From IMG/VR virus record IMGVR_UViG_3300034071_001420: a stretch of 20,000 nt of DNA, one strand, 5' to 3'. The translations under genes were made by a program, and so were the position numbers. Below are positions 1 through 20,000 of this stretch, in pieces. Below the pieces are notes generated by a model. The model had not been told where the DNA came from and made no database searches. It was given only the letters and a program-made list of their open reading frames with translations. The number at the start of each line of letters is the position of its first letter. Within the stretch, counting starts at the first letter, position 1. The DNA is from an uncultured virus (IMG/VR IMGVR_UViG_3300034071_001420). Its lineage: Duplodnaviria; Heunggongvirae; Uroviricota; Caudoviricetes.

Positions 1-823
1 CTTTACCTTCCGCACCGTCTTTGCCGTCTTTTCCGTCTTTGCCGTCTTGACCTCGTACTCCAGCCTCGCCTCTATCGCCTTTATCACCTTTCTCCCCTTG
101 CTCACCACGAGGCCCAACTTCTCCACGATCTCCGCTAGAGCCTTTCTCACCTGTTTCACCCCTTTCGCCACGCTCGCCCTTTGGGCCTTGCTCACCTTTT
201 TCACCCTTTTCGCCGTTTTCGCCTGCATCGCCTTTATCTCCTTTTTCACCTTTTTCGCCTTGAACGCCCTGTTCACCCTTGTCGCCGGGCCAACCTGTAT
301 ATCCACTTTCTCCACGCTCGCCTTGTTCGCCCCTTTCGCCACGCTCGCCCCGTAACCCCTGTTGTCCAACCTTGGGCACAATAGCCGCAATTTCAGACAG
401 TACAGTAGCCAAACCCTTGCGGAATTCTTTGAACTGGGATTCCGTAATGTACACAGGTGTGGGCGGTGGAGGCACAAACTCTTCACCTTCAGTAATCACT
501 ACAGTTTTTGGCAGCGGTTCCACCCACTCAAACAAGGTGTTCACCACACCCAAATCAGCAGACAGCACCACAGCACGACCGTTGGGATCAATAAAGCAGT
601 GTTCGCCAATACCGTCACCAATCTTCAAAATATACGGATCGTGTGCAACCGCTTCGGTTTGTGAAATATATGTAAACCGATCACCAATCTTGTAGTCTGT
701 GCCCTTGACACGGTGAGTCAGGGTAAACTGTGAACCAAAGCCATAACGCCCCTCCGAAAACGGTAGAGGCTTTGTTGGCTCTTGCGAGTCTTTTGGTTGT
801 GAGAATCGCTTGAACTGTTCCAT
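1..823 (-). CDS. Collagen-like protein (Gly-X-Y triple-helix repeats), probably virion fibre/structural; 3' end runs off the window
   Basis: Not in the ORF track; translated by hand. ATG at 823 gives [30 protein letters not shown]..., about 150 aa of non-repetitive N-terminus, then continuous [33 protein letters not shown]...[17 protein letters not shown] to position 2. Confidence 0.88.
2..370 (-). repeat. Coding 9-nt-periodic Gly-X-Y repeat tract (about 40 triplets in the window), including near-perfect GKD x3
   Basis: Repeated ttcacc/tcgcc/ccgtcttt units on the + strand are GE/GD/GKD codons on the - strand. Confidence 0.85.
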
Positions 824-827
824 CCTA

Positions 828-1583
828 CTATGTAGGGAGTGTGGTTAGTGCTTTCCAAGAGTGGGGAAACAGGGGAGCAATAATTTGAGAAATTGCTTGG
901 GCGTACTGCTGGACTTCCCATTGTGCGTGTGCGTCAACCCGTTGTGCGTAGATTCGGGCGTATGCAGACAGCGAACCTGTCCACCACCACTCTGTATAGG
1001 TTCCCTGTGGCAGAACCGCTCGTGCCTGTTCAGGAGCAACTCCGCGAGCCAACAACCGGTTGTATGCGTCAAGTGCTTCCAGTACTACACGATTAAACAT
1101 CACATCCATTTCATCCACCAACATGGGATCGTCAACAAAATCGCTGCTGCCCTGCTTGGCTCCATCGGTGGGTGCTGCTCGCCAATCAGGGGTGTAGAAC
1201 TGTGGTTCGTCTGTGACATACCGACGAGACACTTCGTTTTCCACCATGCCTACCTTGTGCTTGAACAGTTGTGTACGCACAAAGACGGGAGCCTTGATCC
1301 GCAGCGTGATTTGTGGATGGGCAAAAGGAGTCCAGTGCTTGTGTTTAGCCAAATACGCAATCAGCCGCTCATCCTTTTGTGGCAACACACGCAGTTCGTT
1401 TTCGTCAAATCTAGAACCACTATCGGTTAGTCTCTTTTTTGCGGCTTCGTCTACTCCCCAATCACTCTCTTTGTTGAAAGACACACGGGCAGCGTTCACA
1501 ACAGTAAGATCACTACCCATGTGATCCACATATTCCACATGACCACAGTTTAGCACAGAGTAAAAGGTTTCACTCGGTTTCAT
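828..1583 (-). CDS. thyX: Flavin-dependent thymidylate synthase ThyX
   Basis: Motifs VVNAARVS, HWTPFAH, APVFVRTQLFKHK...NEVSRRY (ThyX signature variant), GVAPEQARAVLP and AQWEVQQYA. Start placed at ATG 1583 (GGAGA upstream) rather than TTG 1595. Confidence 0.95.
   Translation of the reverse strand: MKPSETFYSVLNCGHVEYVDHMGSDLTVVNAARVSFNKESDWGVDEAAKKRLTDSGSRFDENELRVLPQKDERLIAYLAKHKHWTPFAHPQITLRIKAPVFVRTQLFKHKVGMVENEVSRRYVTDEPQFYTPDWRAAPTDGAKQGSSDFVDDPMLVDEMDVMFNRVVLEALDAYNRLLARGVAPEQARAVLPQGTYTEWWWTGSLSAYARIYAQRVDAHAQWEVQQYAQAISQIIAPLFPHSWKALTTLPT
829..836 (-). promoter_or_regulatory. Candidate phage late promoter CCTACATA (variant of T4 TATAAATA)
   Basis: Lies 5 nt upstream of the collagen-gene ATG, overlapping the thyX stop. 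The same core recurs at 17225-17232 and 18456-18462, each upstream of a gene start. Confidence 0.45.
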
Positions 1584-1833
1584 CGGTGTCTCCAAACCAG
1601 CCGTCAGTCATGTCTTCGTCGGTGATTTCGTGGTTGTTTTCGCTGATGTCTTCGCCACCCACTTCTTCCAACTCAAACCCTTCAAGTTCAACACCTGTCA
1701 GGTCTTCAGCGTACTCAACCGCTCGCTTGTACAGTTCAGGATTGGTGTTCTTCAGGTATTCAACAATTGCAAAAGCATAAGCCACCACGGGGTGCTTGAA
1801 ACTGTGACCGTCTTCGTGTTCTTCTTCGCTCAT
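1570..1833 (-). CDS. Small, highly acidic hypothetical protein (87 aa)
   Basis: ATG with GGAG upstream, overlaps both neighbours; 27 D/E versus 4 K/R. Confidence 0.8.
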   Translation of the reverse strand: MSEEEHEDGHSFKHPVVAYAFAIVEYLKNTNPELYKRAVEYAEDLTGVELEGFELEEVGGEDISENNHEITDEDMTDGWFGDTDETE

Positions 1834-2060
1834 GTGGTGCTCCTAGACTCTAGTTCTTGAATTTTAGCCTTTAGGGTTTTGATTTCTTCAGCCGCAAGAA
1901 TCATACACTCTTGCACTTCTCTCCAAAAAGAAAACATCTGACACATTGAAACTGCTTCAACTCTTTGGAGAATTGGCATATTTGCTATACGATTTGCTAG
2001 CAATTTGCCAACCTCGTCGTTACACCAAGAGTTTATTGGGTTTATTTCATATTGATTCAT
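1830..2060 (-). CDS. Hypothetical protein (76 aa) with C-terminal coiled-coil-like segment
   Basis: Fills the gap between the primase stop and the next gene, ATGA overlap; AT-richer than flanks. Confidence 0.7.
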   Translation of the reverse strand: MNQYEINPINSWCNDEVGKLLANRIANMPILQRVEAVSMCQMFSFWREVQECMILAAEEIKTLKAKIQELESRSTT

Positions 2061-18433: not shown

Positions 18434-18454
18434 GTTCACGGTTCTCCTATGAGT

Positions 18455-19225
18455 TTATGTAGACAAAGCACGGAATGTGTTTTGGATTCCTTGACGCAAT
18501 CCAATTATATTAATTGGCGGCAGACCGCTTTCACCACAATACATTTGTAATTGGTTTTCGTTTTCTGTGACGATTGGTACTTTGTGGCTATCCAACGAGT
18601 TAATCATGTTGGCTATAGTTTTTAGCGTATATTTTTCTTCGTAGCAACAGTTTATATCCTTTATCGGATCGGCGTTGTTTATGTAATACTCTACAGTAGA
18701 GATCAGGTCTTGCATATAGATGAAATCCATAATTTTATTGGTATGAATAATCATCGGCTCTTTCTTGATATATCTTGTTATGTTTGCTTTGATGAATCTG
18801 GTGGGCAACTCATTCTCATCAAACACACCAAAGATTCTCAAATCGTAAAAATTGAAATTGTTTTTTACTGACTCATTTATTATAGCCTTGCTTTTGCCGT
18901 GTGGCGTATCAGACAAGTAGTATTGAGATCCTGATCCAAAGGTTATTAGTTTTCCAAAGTGATCTTTGTTATTCACCAAATTGAAATACATTGACAGATT
19001 TTCGTCCAAGACAGATAATCTGTCTGGAATCAATCTATTTCCACCAACAATTGCGGTGTGTAGTACCACATCAAAATATTTTTTTCCAAGCCAATCAGAA
19101 AGAGATTTTTCATTTGTTAAATCAAAATCTTGTCGGCTAACGCTGGTGACAACATGCTCACTCTTAAGGCGAGCAACGATACTTTTAGCAACATATCCAT
19201 TTCCACCGGTTACTAGAATATTCAT
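18455..19225 (-). CDS. NAD-dependent epimerase/dehydratase (extended SDR)
   Basis: MNILVTGGNGYVA Rossmann motif, VLHTA, ITFGSG, LRIFGVF, DFIYMQD. The YxxxK position reads HGKSK. Confidence 0.9.
   Translation of the reverse strand: MNILVTGGNGYVAKSIVARLKSEHVVTSVSRQDFDLTNEKSLSDWLGKKYFDVVLHTAIVGGNRLIPDRLSVLDENLSMYFNLVNNKDHFGKLITFGSGSQYYLSDTPHGKSKAIINESVKNNFNFYDLRIFGVFDENELPTRFIKANITRYIKKEPMIIHTNKIMDFIYMQDLISTVEYYINNADPIKDINCCYEEKYTLKTIANMINSLDSHKVPIVTENENQLQMYCGESGLPPINIIGLRQGIQNTFRALST
18456..18462 (-). promoter_or_regulatory. Candidate late promoter CTACATA
   Basis: Overlaps the epimerase stop codon, just upstream of the GT gene's AGGAGA RBS. Confidence 0.4.
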
Positions 19226-19854
19226 AATGGAACATATATTCTGTCTGATGTGGGAGAATACGAGGAAGCATATCTGTATCCAAATTGGAATATTGTTTTT
19301 TCTAAATCGTCTATTGAACTGCCGTATCTAGACAACCATTCCGAATATGCTTCCACGCATATAACTGGTTTGTATTTTTCGATGGTATCTTTTGCACCTT
19401 TCAACGCATTGACCTCATATCCTTCTATGTCCAACATTATCAAATCGCAGGTGTCCAAGTTCAAGTCATCTATCGTGAATGTCGGGATTTTGCCAGAAGA
19501 TTTAACATAAAATGCACCATTATCATTATCGTATAAATTACCCATCGCAACCAATTTGTGGGAATCTCCCAAACACGCTTGGAATTTATGAACATTCGGA
19601 GAAGTGATATTCAAATTCAAACAATAAAAATTTAAAGGATCTGGTTCAAAAGTGTATATGTCTTGGAATACCGATACAAAAGGTTCCAACACTAACCCAC
19701 AATTTCCTCCGGCTTGAACCATTGTGTTTGTATTTTTTAAGTGTGGTTGTATATGTTCCAAGTGTTTATTATCTCTGGACAACACATCATATGTGTACGA
19801 ACCATTTGCTGCCCAGTAAAATCCATTTGGTTTTTTTGTAATCAAATCTTTCAT
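19222..19854 (-). CDS. FkbM-family SAM-dependent methyltransferase
   Basis: VQAGGNCG, YTFEPDPLNF, TIDDL, DLIMLDIEGYE..ALKGA..TI...KPVICVE. Confidence 0.9.
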   Translation of the reverse strand: MKDLITKKPNGFYWAANGSYTYDVLSRDNKHLEHIQPHLKNTNTMVQAGGNCGLVLEPFVSVFQDIYTFEPDPLNFYCLNLNITSPNVHKFQACLGDSHKLVAMGNLYDNDNGAFYVKSSGKIPTFTIDDLNLDTCDLIMLDIEGYEVNALKGAKDTIEKYKPVICVEAYSEWLSRYGSSIDDLEKTIFQFGYRYASSYSPTSDRIYVPL

Positions 19855-20000
19855 GTTTTTTCCTTATTTTTTAATTTTTGGGCAACTTCCATAATCAGAT
19901 CTTCTTGTCCAGCGATCAGTTTTCTATTACCTAATTCAAATATAAGAGAAGAATATTCTATTCCATATAATCTAGATGCCTCTATAATTGGTTTTTCAAA
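19851..20000 (-). CDS. C-terminus of a 4-hydroxy-2-oxovalerate aldolase-like protein (DmpG communication domain); 5' part outside the window
   Basis: Manual translation FEKPIIEASRLYGIEYSSLIFELGNRKLIAGQEDLIMEVAQKLKNKEKT* matches the DmpG/MhpE C-terminal pattern ELGxRKxxxGQEDxI; ATGA overlap with the FkbM gene. Confidence 0.78.
   Translation of the reverse strand, partial: FEKPIIEASRLYGIEYSSLIFELGNRKLIAGQEDLIMEVAQKLKNKEKT

What the first reader, a model, noticed from the sequence alone, without database searches (positions are those of the whole stretch)
1..20000. AGCT appears completely absent; TCGA and GGCC look strongly depleted
Seen (manual scan, may miss a site): well over a hundred AGCA/AGCC/AGCG but no AGCT, against about 78 expected for equal base frequencies. 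TCGA was noticed only at 6567, 18348 and 19379, and GGCC only about 9 times. Other palindromes such as GATC, GTAC and TGCA are common. The gap extends into the AT-rich inserted genes. Established: these are AluI-, TaqI- and HaeIII-type sites, and phages purge restriction sites. Inference: long-term selection by host R-M systems, or self-avoidance of a phage-encoded nuclease such as 10806-11516.
Basis: partly seen in the sequence, partly recalled or inferred. Interest (0 to 1): 0.7.

Follow-up and report, generated by a model that had tools for sequence, protein, structure and literature searches.

The report
Phage purged of restriction sites
A lake-water T4-like phage has chosen its codons so that some thirty short palindromic DNA words of the kind cut by bacterial restriction enzymes are missing, and it carries a lone restriction-enzyme gene whose likely target, ACGT, is one of the missing words.

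Summary
GCGC, CCGG, CTNAG, CCWGG, GGWCC and 16 further six-base palindromes are absent or rare. Trinucleotide and synonymous-codon nulls do not explain this. Site-making codon pairs are never used.

The window is the replication module of an uncultured freshwater T4-like phage. ACGT and AGCT are absent across its clade, while other avoided words differ between sublineages. This is classical restriction-site avoidance. Host restriction-modification pressure is the best explanation, but the host is unknown.

Gene 10806-11516 is not the cause. It is a recent AT-rich cassette found in 2 of 19 comparable loci.
- Bacterial homologues sit beside m5C methylase genes in 20 of 22 loci, in DNA where ACGT is the most depleted 4-mer.
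- All 27 other phage loci carrying a homologue have no ACGT.

It is probably a solitary ACGT-type enzyme tolerated in a site-free genome. The scan has reported AGCT-purged phage clades before on other DNA.

The parts
1..20000 (.). Whole window: no ACGT and no AGCT. TCGA, GGCC, GCGC, CCGG, CTNAG, CCWGG, GGWCC and CASTG are strongly depleted, and 40 of 64 palindromic hexamers are absent.
   Evidence: 26 minus-strand ORFs tile 19,551 of the 20,000 bases.
10806..11516 (-). Solitary Type II restriction-endonuclease homologue (P0001, 236 aa, GC 0.33). Predicted PD-(D/E)XK core with conserved D138, E/D149-x-Q151 and K162. Inferred target ACGT.
   Evidence: No hit in Pfam, PHROGs, NCBIfam or PADLOC. 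AlphaFold2 pLDDT 88. Foldseek top matches are HincII and Hjc at E 1.7e-3 or weaker. VIA-align gives Hjc Z 7.2 and DpnI, MspI, PvuII Z about 5. Bacterial homologues sit beside m5C methylase genes in 20 of 22 loci. ACGT is scarce or absent wherever the family occurs. Atlas and NCBI name relatives 'restriction endonuclease'.
10810..11537 (-). Inserted cassette carrying P0001, between the SpeD-like gene and methylase MT2. The same slot holds 21 bp in L011.
   Evidence: blastn junctions; slot length in 19 loci. Start and stop codons overlap those of the neighbours (GTGA and ATGA).
9607..10809 (-). MT2, a beta-class N6/N4 DNA methyltransferase (400 aa, motif IV TSPPY). Present in most members of the >=70% PolB clade whose locus reaches this position, with a variable middle region.
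   Evidence: PF01555 at 6.4e-46. PADLOC MTase_II at 2.8e-102. Presence in relatives. Residues 269-347 are missing or changed in relatives.
4461..5174 (-). MT1, a second N6/N4 DNA methyltransferase (237 aa, motif IV TSPPY, GC 0.39). Variable accessory gene between the helicase and UvsX genes.
   Evidence: PF01555 at 1.4e-41. Closest solved chain is 8s9m, 'DNA cytosine-N4 methyltransferase', E 2.7e-38. Present in L001, L002, L005, L016 and L040 only.
12665..13582 (-). Mom-like DNA modification protein, a candidate further anti-restriction function.
   Evidence: PF25680 at 3.1e-11. phrog_1384 at 4.8e-17.
11922..12596 (-). HNH homing-type endonuclease, AT-rich and variable among relatives.
   Evidence: phrog_953 at 5.5e-44. 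Presence table.
6798..9344 (-). Family B (T4 gp43-like) DNA polymerase, used as the marker to collect relatives.
   Evidence: Pfam. Best isolate match is 49.3% to Synechococcus phage S-RIM8. 79 IMG/VR loci collected.
6567..6570 (.). Residual TCGA (TCG ATC, Ser-Ile). Avoidable by a synonymous change.
18348..18351 (.). Residual TCGA (ATC GAC, Ile-Asp). Avoidable by a synonymous change.
19379..19382 (.). Residual TCGA (ATC GAA, Ile-Glu), in the AT-rich FkbM-like gene.

Best explanation
The window is the replication and nucleotide-metabolism module of an uncultured, virulent-type T4-like phage from lake water. Its genome has been purged, mostly by context-dependent synonymous codon choice, of about thirty short palindromes of the kind recognised by Type II restriction enzymes.

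Shown:
- The depletion is real.
- It acts on double-strand-symmetric words.
- It is clade-wide for ACGT and AGCT, and lineage-specific for GATC, GCGC, TCGA and CCGG.
- It reaches recently acquired AT-rich genes.
- Every surviving GGCC lies in a dipeptide (Gly-Pro or Trp-Pro) where no synonymous codon gives a sequence free of GGNCC.

Inferred: the selective agent is the restriction-modification repertoire of the unknown host population. Every site is a potential lethal cut at DNA entry. Words that stay common (GATC, GTAC, CATG, TGCA, GANTC) are either not targeted or are shielded by the phage's own methylases or Mom-like enzyme.

Gene 10806-11516 is not the cause of the purge but probably benefits from it. 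It is a solitary restriction-endonuclease homologue, most likely ACGT-specific. It sits in an insertion hot spot and has no cognate m5C methylase. A genome with no ACGT could carry such a gene without cutting itself.
For: 1. Statistics.
- Six of the seven most under-represented of the 256 tetranucleotides are palindromes.
- Synonymous-codon shuffles give 58-63 expected AGCT, ACGT and TCGA against 0, 0 and 3 observed.

2. Mechanism visible in codons.
- NAC|GTN is used 0 of 59 times (about 34 expected).
- AAG, CAG or GAG before CTN is used 0 of 48 times (about 21 expected). After these codons Leu is TTR 22 times and CTN 0 times.
- An A-ending codon stands before GCT 0 of 96 times, and before CGT 0 of 116 times.

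3. Hierarchy of constraints.
- All 9 GGCC lie in Gly-Pro (7) or Trp-Pro (2).
- 7 of 8 Gly-Pro use GGC or GGG, giving GGCC, rather than GGW, giving GGWCC.
- 7 of 7 Pro-Gly use CCC or CCG rather than CCW, which would give CCWGG.

4. Relatives.
- ACGT is 0 in 56 of 77 testable PolB-relative loci, and AGCT is 0 in 44 of 73.
- In 96 kb of G002, ACGT is 0 against 302 expected, AGCT 0 against 303 and CCGG 0 against 325, but GCGC is 370 against 534.
- G005 has GATC 6 against 122, and lost 43 of the 45 aligned GATC sites of the window while gaining none.
- Cultured Kyanoviridae avoid other sets. S-RIM8 has CCGG 0 against 50 and GATC 32 against 205. DSL-LC03 has CCGG 1 against 23.

5. Two N6/N4 methylases and a Mom-like gene lie in the window.

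6. The gene pool these phages draw on holds a restriction-enzyme family tied to ACGT scarcity.

7. Not an artefact: the DNA is held by 14 lake-water metagenome runs at half or more of its sampled words, 4 of which may be its source.

8. Site avoidance is documented as typical of non-temperate dsDNA phages and orthodox Type II sites (Rusinov et al. 2018, PMC6286503; abstract read).
Against: - The host is unknown.
  - No photosystem gene was found in five partial relatives' records.
  - The one genome-collection scan, with UvdE, gave only 34-36% matches in Chloroflexota-type genomes.
- No restriction enzyme of any candidate host could be matched to any avoided word.
- ACGT and AGCT are absent across relatives down to 72% PolB identity, and ACGT in still more distant T4-like groups. 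This requires the same specificities to persist across many host strains, or some cause carried by the phages themselves.
- Palindromes read the same in mRNA whichever strand is transcribed, so selection on DNA and on RNA cannot be separated by strand.
- The shortage of Gly-Pro and Pro-Gly dipeptides (8 and 7 against 19.4 expected) is not specific. Core proteins of relatives without DNA-level avoidance (L045, L046) are equally poor in them.
Confidence: 0.75

Rival explanations
1. Self-avoidance. The phage lineage encodes its own nucleases (10806-11516 or a conserved gene elsewhere) that cut ACGT, AGCT and the other words to destroy host or rival DNA. The phage genome lost these words to avoid suicide.
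For: - P0001 is a restriction-endonuclease homologue with its catalytic motif conserved.
- All 27 other phage loci that carry a homologue have no ACGT, 0 against 253.6 expected in 147 kb.
- Among PolB relatives, 56 of 77 testable loci have no ACGT. Fisher p = 0.0014, with loci not independent.
- A second, unrelated restriction enzyme (BstYI-like) sits in the same slot in G003, whose DNA has AGATCT 0 against 14.6 expected and GGATCC 1 against 19.
- ACGT and AGCT avoidance is unusually constant across the clade.
Against: - P0001 is present in 2 of the 19 loci where the slot could be read. Strains with identical PolB carry an HNH gene there (L005, L006), and 11 loci have the slot empty. All of them lack ACGT and AGCT.
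- The cassette has GC 0.33 against 0.47 for the phage, so it looks recent.
- No restriction-enzyme Pfam family was found among 94 of 95 ORFs of the 96-kb relative G002.
- One enzyme cannot explain about thirty avoided words.
Confidence: 0.1
2. Mutational decay. Host or phage m5C methylation of ACGT, AGCT, GGCC and the like, followed by deamination, erodes the sites without selection against cleavage. This has been argued for ACGT in Helicobacter pylori.
For: In H. pylori, ACGT (target of the m5C methylase M.Hpy99XI) is strongly under-represented and is lost mainly to ATGT and ACAT (PMC10423294; passages read).
Against: - The deamination products are not enriched in the window. AGTT and AACT stand at 0.96 and 0.98 of expectation, ATGT and ACAT at 0.82 and 0.88.
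- Replacements of GATC, GCGC and CCGG between relatives hit all four positions, within what synonymous change allows.
- A count of zero in every reading frame and in newly acquired genes needs selection.
- TCGA, CTNAG and several A/T-rich hexamers are avoided too.
Confidence: 0.03
3. By-product of codon usage, dinucleotide bias or constraints at the RNA or translation level.
For: - TA-containing words (CTTA/TAAG, TTAA) are also rare against codon shuffles, so some depletion is generic.
- All genes lie on one strand.
Against: - Second-order Markov and synonymous-codon nulls both fail to explain the palindromes.
- 62.5% of palindromic hexamers are absent, against 11.8% of non-palindromic ones.
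- G002 has called ORFs on both strands (42 plus, 53 minus) and shows the same zeros.
Confidence: 0.02
4. P0001 is not a 4-base cutter but a free-standing homing endonuclease with a long target, derived from a restriction-enzyme family. Its link with ACGT-free genomes would then reflect only the shared ecology of the phages among which it moves.
For: - It occupies an intergenic slot that sibling strains fill with HNH endonucleases.
- Homologues lie at different places in T4-like genomes: beside PolB, beside the Rad50-like gene, between the gp45 and gp44 genes, and inside a Tet/ADDT modification cluster. 64 of 115 neighbour ORFs were scanned.
- The PD-(D/E)XK homing enzyme I-Ssp6803I is among the structural matches, Z 5.5.
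Against: - Bacterial members are paired with m5C methylases like ordinary Type II systems.
- ACGT scarcity follows the family in unrelated bacterial DNA as well: 58 loci, 105 against 446 expected.
Confidence: 0.3

Closest known systems
Restriction-site (short palindrome) avoidance in non-temperate dsDNA phages (Rusinov et al. 2018, PMC6286503; abstract read)
   Same: Complete or near-complete loss of orthodox Type II-type palindromes in a virulent-type dsDNA phage. Closest cultured relatives (Kyanoviridae S-RIM8 and DSL-LC03) also avoid some palindromes.
   Different: - Breadth: two tetranucleotides at zero, four more at 6-26% of expectation, four 5-base families and 16 or more extra hexamers.
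- Zero counts persist across relatives down to 72% PolB identity.
- The host, and so the cognate enzymes, are unknown.
AGCT-free pandoraviruses (Poirot et al. 2019, bioRxiv 10.1101/712018; abstract and sections 7 and 11 read)
   Same: Total absence of AGCT in large viral genomes, linked to phylogeny and reached by undirected replacement.
   Different: There only AGCT is missing, while ACGT and GATC are abundant, and the authors excluded a restriction-modification model. Here many palindromes are missing together, in a phage with methylase genes. That fits the bacterial restriction model.
Type II ACGT systems with an m5C methylase, e.g. Hpy99XI of Helicobacter pylori (PMC10423294, passages read). 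HpyCH4IV is listed with site ACGT in PMC3849833 (passage read). MaeII and TaiI are recalled only.
   Same: - Bacterial homologues of P0001 are paired with C5-cytosine methylases.
- ACGT is the most depleted 4-mer around them.
- The nearest named Atlas clusters are 'restriction endonuclease', commonest in Campylobacterota.
   Different: - No sequence of a characterised ACGT enzyme was available, so homology to Hpy99XI or HpyCH4IV is untested.
- The phage copy has no m5C methylase partner.
[quoted passage not shown] 2012, PMC3488263; abstract and passages read)
   Same: A Type II endonuclease gene without a linked cognate methylase.
   Different: That survey concerns cellular genomes. In the abstract and the three passages containing 'phage' that I read, it does not mention phage genomes free of the site. 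Here the carrier is a phage whose DNA lacks the inferred target altogether.
Free-standing homing endonuclease genes of T4-like phages (seg and mob genes; recalled) and the PD-(D/E)XK homing enzyme I-Ssp6803I (PDB 2ost)
   Same: AT-rich, present or absent between near-identical strains, in intergenic slots between conserved genes, and replaceable by HNH genes.
   Different: The family's bacterial members are ordinary restriction-modification partners. The target of the phage copy is unknown.

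Membership tests
Restriction-site avoidance in phages | Counts far below a composition-aware and coding-aware null | tested here: met
   Second-order Markov z of -6.9 to -12.6 for six tetranucleotides. Synonymous-codon shuffles give z of -5.9 to -10.5.
Restriction-site avoidance in phages | Affected words are short palindromes of Type II kind, not words in general | tested here: met
   Six of the seven lowest tetranucleotides are palindromes. 40 of 64 palindromic hexamers are absent, against 11.8% of the others.
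Restriction-site avoidance in phages | The host encodes restriction enzymes for the avoided words | not testable with these tools
   Host unknown. No REBASE access.
Restriction-site avoidance in phages | Non-temperate dsDNA phage | tested here: inconclusive
   T4-like replication genes lie in the window. T4-like capsid, portal, sheath and terminase genes lie in relative G002. No integrase was seen, but no complete genome is held.
Type II restriction endonuclease (for 10806-11516) | PD-(D/E)XK nuclease fold with conserved acidic catalytic residues | tested here: inconclusive
   - Model pLDDT 88.
- The best Foldseek rows are all nucleases (HincII, Hjc), but at E 1.7e-3 or weaker and TM about 0.3.
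- VIA-align Z is 7.2 for Hjc, a middling value.
- D138 and Q151 are invariant, position 149 is always E or D, and K162 is invariant.
Type II restriction endonuclease (for 10806-11516) | Family members are linked to a DNA methyltransferase gene | tested here: met
   PF00145 C5-methylase is the adjacent gene in 20 of 22 long-flank non-phage loci scanned. 23 of the 76 loci were chosen for long flanks, and one duplicate was left out.
Type II restriction endonuclease (for 10806-11516) | Cognate methylase present in the same genome | tested here: not met
   - No C5-methylase lies in the window.
- The neighbour MT2 is an N6/N4 enzyme that is 99.75% identical in L005, where the slot holds an HNH gene instead.
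- So the phage copy is solitary, as far as the 20 kb shows.
Type II restriction endonuclease (for 10806-11516) | Sequence-specific cleavage (proposed site ACGT) | not testable with these tools
   Indirect evidence only.
- ACGT is 0 against 253.6 expected in 27 phage loci.
- ACGT is 63 against 249 in 20 bacterial loci, the lowest of 256 words when pooled.
- Per locus, however, GATC has the lowest z among palindromes in 8 loci and ACGT in 4.
Free-standing homing endonuclease (for 10806-11516) | Presence or absence polymorphism at a fixed intergenic slot among close relatives | tested here: met
   Slot content in 19 loci: empty in 11, P0001 in 2, HNH in 2, BstYI-like in 2, unknown in 1, Mom-like in 1.
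Free-standing homing endonuclease (for 10806-11516) | Cleaves the endonuclease-free allele near the insertion point | not testable with these tools
   Needs an enzyme assay.
Beta-class N6/N4 DNA methyltransferases (MT1, MT2) | PF01555 domain with motif IV before motif I | tested here: met
   PF01555 at 1.4e-41 and 6.4e-46. TSPPY lies near the N-terminus. That SPPY marks N4-cytosine enzymes is recalled, not tested. The closest solved chain to MT1 is named an N4-cytosine methylase.
T4-like phages near Kyanoviridae | gp43-type polymerase, gp41, gp61 and UvsX in T4-like order, with T4-type structural genes | tested here: met
   - Pfam and PHROGs hits.
- Same order (polymerase, recombinase, primase-helicase) as in DSL-LC03 and S-RIM8.
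- Structural genes in G002.
- PolB identity to cultured cyanophages is only 49%, so family membership and a cyanobacterial host stay open.

The most novel reading that the evidence does not exclude
The 10806-11516 protein is an active, ACGT-specific restriction endonuclease that T4-like lake phages carry without any protecting methylase. They can do so only because their genomes hold no ACGT at all.

Palindrome purging, first forced by host restriction, would then have turned into an asset. It lets the phage pick up bare restriction enzymes as weapons against unmethylated host DNA or against co-infecting phages that still carry the site. In relative G003 the equivalent gene is a BstYI/BglII-type enzyme in a genome with no AGATCT and one GGATCC.

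The slot upstream of methylase MT2 would be a landing pad for such genes.
Probability: 0.35. Interest if true: 0.7.

Novelty: new member of a known kind. Interest (0 to 1): 0.5.

Why it matters
Restriction-site avoidance itself is textbook. This case adds four things.

1. It is one of the most thorough examples. Two tetranucleotides are at zero and about thirty words are avoided in all. The survivors show which constraint wins when two forbidden words collide: at Gly-Pro, GGCC is accepted rather than GGWCC, and at Pro-Gly, CCGG rather than CCWGG.

2. Relatives from many lake metagenomes form a natural series in which single words (GATC, GCGC, TCGA, CCGG) switch between tolerated and forbidden. 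This gives a read-out of the restriction repertoire of an uncultured host population.

4. If the solitary-enzyme reading holds, it shows a route by which a defensive adaptation (a site-free genome) lets a virus adopt a bacterial weapon without its antidote.

Tried and rejected
- Whole-genome counts: no assembly is held for the window. The nearest record, G001, is only 19,955 bp. I used relatives' contigs instead.
- Host identification:
  - megablast against cultured phages gave one 109-bp match.
  - psbA (PF00124) was found in 0 of 5 partial relatives' records.
  - The UvdE scan of genome contigs gave 3 distant matches of no use for host inference.
  - Sequencing runs are labelled only 'lake water metagenome'.
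- Survivor-flank idea, prompted by earlier scan notes on a G in front of surviving AGCT. 42 of 44 surviving GGCC in the window, G005 and G006 are in GGGCC or GGCCC. In the window this is fully explained by Gly-Pro and Trp-Pro coding, so no base modification need be invoked. TCGA, GCGC and CCGG survivors show no flank rule.
- Selection at the protein level against Gly-Pro and Pro-Gly is suggestive in the window, but the control lineages are equally poor in them. Not claimed.
- A link between methylase presence and tolerated words gave nothing. MT1 presence or absence, and MT2 length variants, do not track GATC or any other word in the loci at hand.
- P0001 against profile libraries and PDB sequences: no hit. 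No homologue among 50,697 cultured phage records or 72,556 plasmids.
No result exists.
- Literature:
  - 'cyanophage' with 'restriction site avoidance' found 0 papers.
  - 'cyanophage', 'palindrome', 'restriction' and 'avoidance' together found 2 papers, neither on phage 4-mers.
  - Searches for phage-encoded, orphan or solitary restriction endonucleases found 10 papers. I read the abstract and three 'phage' passages of one of them, Ershova et al. 2012; nothing there or in the other nine listings describes a site-free phage carrying a solitary enzyme.

Full report
**The observation**

The window has 20,000 bases at 46.5% G+C. Twenty-six ORFs, all on the minus strand, tile 19,551 of those bases.
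- AGCT is absent.
- TCGA occurs three times, at 6567, 18348 and 19379.
- GGCC occurs nine times.
- GATC (58), GTAC (110), TGCA (89) and CATG (80) are common.
- AGCA, AGCC and AGCG sum to 222.

A second-order Markov model, which absorbs all trinucleotide bias, expects 55.3 AGCT, 45.9 TCGA and 53.3 GGCC, giving z of -9.6, -8.2 and -7.9.

A stricter coding-aware control used 1000 shuffles of synonymous codons within each gene. It gave 58.4 +/- 6.1 AGCT (lowest shuffle 40), 62.7 +/- 6.2 TCGA and 50.1 +/- 5.3 GGCC.

The claim about the AT-rich genes also holds. In 4759 pooled bases of low-GC ORFs, AGCT is 0 against 9.5 expected, ACGT 0 against 9.0 and TCGA 1 against 9.2.

- ACGT is also absent (78.4 expected, z -12.6). 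ACGT and AGCT are the only two of the 256 tetranucleotides with a count of zero.
- GCGC (10 against 51) and CCGG (13 against 50) are depleted too. Six of the seven most under-represented tetranucleotides are palindromes.
- Among 5-base words (first-order Markov):
  - CTNAG 1 against 57
  - CCWGG 0 against 34
  - GGWCC 2 against 30
  - CASTG 10 against 53
  - GANTC is, if anything, over-represented at 97 against 65.
- Forty of the 64 palindromic hexamers are absent, against 11.8% of non-palindromic hexamers. Sixteen of the absent ones contain none of the depleted tetranucleotides.
- I pooled the window with two relatives' contigs, 102 kb in all and not independent of each other. Thirteen such hexamers are absent from all three, even against a fourth-order model: CTGCAG 0 against 35.4, TCATGA 0 against 29.8, CCATGG 0 against 26.8, CGTACG 0 against 19.6 and TGATCA 0 against 18.4.

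**How the words are removed**

Every way of making ACGT or AGCT across a codon boundary is avoided, although the codons themselves are common:
- Asn, His, Asp or Tyr before Val never use the C-ending codon: 0 of 59, about 34 expected.
- Lys, Gln or Glu before a CTN leucine never use the G-ending codon: 0 of 48, about 21 expected.
- After AAG, CAG or GAG, leucine is TTR 22 times and CTN 0 times.
- GCT and CGT are never preceded by an A-ending codon: 0 of 96 and 0 of 116.

The survivors are informative:
- All nine GGCC lie in Gly-Pro (seven) or Trp-Pro (two).
- Gly-Pro always yields GGNCC, whatever the codons. The phage writes it as GGC or GGG + CCN (GGCC) seven times out of eight, rather than GGW + CCN (GGWCC).
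- Likewise all seven Pro-Gly are CCC or CCG + GGN, never CCW + GGN (CCWGG). These account for 7 of the 13 CCGG.

So GGCC is in effect fully purged wherever the protein allows, and CCWGG and GGWCC rank above CCGG and GGCC. The three TCGA and the ten GCGC could all be removed by a synonymous change.

Gly-Pro and Pro-Gly are themselves scarce, 8 and 7 against 19.4 expected. Relatives without DNA-level avoidance are equally poor in them in the core proteins, so I make no claim of selection at the protein level.

**What the DNA is**

Pfam and PHROGs identify:
- a collagen-like protein, ThyX, a primase, a DnaB-type helicase and a RecA/UvsX protein;
- a family B polymerase and a GroES-like protein;
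- two N6/N4 DNA methylases;
- a SpeD-like decarboxylase, an HNH endonuclease and a Mom-like protein;
- a lysozyme, UvdE, a dUTPase-like protein and sugar-modifying enzymes.

The polymerase is at most 49.3% identical to those of cultured phages. The best matches are Synechococcus cyanomyoviruses, which share the order polymerase, recombinase, primase-helicase.

IMG/VR holds 79 related loci. A 96-kb relative (G002, PolB 72%, CheckV 53% complete) has T4-type capsid, portal, sheath, terminase, clamp, clamp-loader, RegA, UvsW and gp46/47-like genes.

The window's DNA is held by 14 lake-water metagenome runs at half or more of its sampled words. Four of these may be its source. No host could be named.

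**The pattern in relatives**

- ACGT is zero in 56 of 77 testable PolB-relative loci, and AGCT in 44 of 73.
- G002 has ACGT 0 against 302, AGCT 0 against 303, CCGG 0 against 325 and GGCC 2 against 236. It tolerates GCGC (370 against 534) and half of the expected TCGA.
- G005 (PolB 91%) has in addition purged GATC, 6 against 122. Of 45 aligned GATC sites of the window, 43 are replaced there and none is gained. The commonest replacement is the synonymous GAT>GAC.
- G006 and several others have purged GCGC.
- More distant T4-like groups avoid only ACGT. One group at 31% G+C avoids ACGT, TCGA, GATC and CATG. Others avoid nothing.
- Cultured relatives avoid other sets.

A stable core plus lineage-specific additions is what an arms race with a variable host restriction repertoire predicts. 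Deamination products are not enriched: AGTT and AACT are at 0.96 and 0.98 of expectation, ATGT and ACAT at 0.82 and 0.88. Replacements hit all positions. This speaks against simple mutational decay of the kind proposed for ACGT in H. pylori (PMC10423294; passages read).

**The 10806-11516 gene**

It matches no profile library.

*Structure and sequence*
- The model is confident, pLDDT 88.
- Its C-terminal half resembles PD-(D/E)XK nucleases, but the scores are middling:
  - Foldseek gives HincII and Hjc at E 1.7e-3 or weaker.
  - VIA-align gives Hjc Z 7.2, and DpnI, I-Ssp6803I, MspI and PvuII about Z 5.
- D138, an acidic residue at 149, Q151 and K162 are conserved across the family.

*A recent cassette, not the cause of the purge*
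- In this clade it is a 728-bp cassette of GC 0.33, set between the SpeD-like gene and methylase MT2. Its start and stop codons overlap those of its neighbours.
- Of the 19 loci where both junctions could be placed:
  - 11 have the slot empty;
  - 2 hold this gene;
  - 2 hold HNH endonucleases, including strains with an identical polymerase;
  - 2 hold a BstYI-like restriction enzyme (PDB 1sdo, E 2.6e-30; PF09195);
  - 1 holds an unknown 204-aa gene;
  - 1 holds a Mom-like gene.
- All of these loci lack ACGT and AGCT. The gene therefore cannot be the cause of the purge.

*What the family is*
- In the metagenome collection 76 loci encode homologues.
- I examined 22 long-flank, non-phage-type loci at 29-36% identity. 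In 20 of them the adjacent gene is a C5-cytosine DNA methylase. This is an ordinary Type II arrangement.
- NCBI names several members 'restriction endonuclease'.
- The nearest named ESM Atlas clusters are 'restriction endonuclease', commonest in Campylobacterota.

*The link to ACGT*
- In those 20 bacterial loci (172 kb), ACGT is the most depleted of all 256 tetranucleotides when pooled: 63 against 249, ratio 0.25. Next come GGCC at 0.51 and GATC at 0.53. ACGT is below expectation in 20 of 20 loci.
- Judged per locus by z, however, GATC is the lowest palindrome in 8 loci and ACGT in 4.
- Over all 58 low-identity loci, ACGT is 105 against 446.
- In the 27 other phage loci that carry a homologue (38-54% identity, at different places in T4-like genomes), ACGT is 0 against 253.6 expected, zero in 27 of 27.
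- It is also zero in the 18 phage-type metagenome loci, 0 against 132. Some of these duplicate the viral ones.
- Among polymerase relatives the share of ACGT-free loci is 56 of 77. Fisher p = 0.0014, with loci not independent.
- The known ACGT system of H. pylori pairs with an m5C methylase.

Together this makes ACGT the most likely specificity of the family. I put it near two in three for the bacterial members and somewhat lower for the phage copy.

The phage copy has no C5-methylase beside it. Its neighbour MT2 is 99.75% identical in L005, whose slot holds an HNH gene instead.

**Reading**

The purge is best explained by host restriction pressure (0.75). The endonuclease gene looks like a later passenger: a solitary restriction-enzyme homologue that a genome free of ACGT could carry without cutting itself.

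Three things remain open, and one cleavage assay would settle them:
- whether it serves as a weapon against host or rival DNA;
- whether it is merely a selfish mobile gene;
- whether it has drifted to a long homing target.

The parallel BstYI-like gene supports the idea that site-free genomes are permissive for bare restriction enzymes. It sits in the same slot of G003, whose DNA has AGATCT 0 against 14.6 and GGATCC 1 against 19, but keeps 28 AGATCC/GGATCT. If that enzyme truly has RGATCY specificity, MT2 would have to protect those 28 sites.

**Comparison and novelty**

Site avoidance in virulent dsDNA phages is well documented (PMC6286503, abstract). Loss of a single tetranucleotide from large phage genomes (GCGC) and of AGCT from pandoraviruses has been described (10.1101/712018, sections 7 and 11). 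Earlier reports of this scan describe AGCT-purged phage clades on other DNA, and a swap-prone island of SpeD-like, methylase-like and Mom-like genes beside the polymerase of a related phage.

The present case is a new and very thorough member of that kind. The new elements are:
- the rule for the survivors at Gly-Pro and Pro-Gly;
- the series of relatives in which single words switch state;

My literature searches found no description of the last point. They cover open-access full texts only.

Noticed in passing
L020 5414-8752; L041 and L068 10001-13339: The polymerase match spans 3339 nt instead of 2544. So the gp43 gene of this 91% sublineage carries an insertion of about 800 nt. This may be an endonuclease cassette splitting the polymerase, as earlier scan notes describe for other cyanophages.
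   Followed up: no
window, whole: CCAG/CTGG is depleted well beyond what the absence of CCWGG explains. The counts are 35 and 26 against 91.5 and 60.1 (second-order Markov). The deficit is spread over CCAGA, CCAGC, CCCAG and GCCAG. It is also seen in G005, and for CCCAG in G002. No motif was assigned.
   Followed up: partly
window 9607-10809 (MT2), residues 269-347: The middle part of MT2 is missing or replaced in L007, L011, L014, L031 and L036, and is 36 residues longer in L041. This is probably a swap of the target-recognition region, but it tracked no avoided word in the loci at hand.
   Followed up: partly
L069-L072, L075, L077 (31% G+C, PolB 44-53%): A distant low-GC T4-like group shows its own avoidance set. 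ACGT is 0 in all six loci, for example 0 against 23 in L072. TCGA is 0 in five and 7 against 20 in L075. GATC is nearly absent throughout, 3 against 73 in L072. CATG is 0 in four, for example 0 against 69 in L072, but 10 against 34 in L075 and 4 against 21 in L077.
   Followed up: no
L103, L104, L106 (about 300-5750): Here the P0001 homologue sits inside a thymidine-hypermodification-type cluster: a Tet/JBP oxygenase, a glutamine amidotransferase, an amino acid:DNA transferase and a P-loop kinase.
   Followed up: no
L126 4182-4673: A Tad3-type Thoeris inhibitor gene (PF25185, 8.2e-34) lies about 550 bp downstream of a P0001 homologue.
   Followed up: no
L146, L147, L150, L153, L155, L179 (upstream ORF of about 259-285 aa, e.g. 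L150 4145-4984): In one bacterial subgroup an unannotated gene of about 259-285 aa precedes the P0001 homologue. In L146 and L150 two C5-methylase genes follow it (the second downstream ORF was not scanned in the others), so this may be a double restriction-modification unit with a second, unknown endonuclease.
   Followed up: no
L013 152-766: A 204-aa gene of GC 0.35 sits in the same SpeD|MT2 slot. It has no family apart from a weak XhoI-like hit (E 0.038). It may be a third restriction-type gene.
   Followed up: partly
window 14932-15576: A 214-aa protein matches phrog_3704, labelled 'ferredoxin, auxiliary metabolic gene', at 1.2e-52, but has no Pfam or NCBIfam hit. It is conserved at 69-98% in many relatives.
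   Followed up: no
window, all proteins: Gly-Pro (8), Pro-Gly (7) and Trp-Pro (2) dipeptides are well below expectation from composition (19.4, 19.4 and 4.7). The five core replication proteins hold 1 Gly-Pro and 0 Pro-Gly in 2239 residues. Distant relatives without palindrome avoidance are equally poor in them.
   Followed up: partly
window, whole: GANTC is over-represented, 97 against about 65. Both methylases give sub-threshold matches to the CcrM (GANTC) model NF050803. No conclusion was drawn.
   Followed up: no
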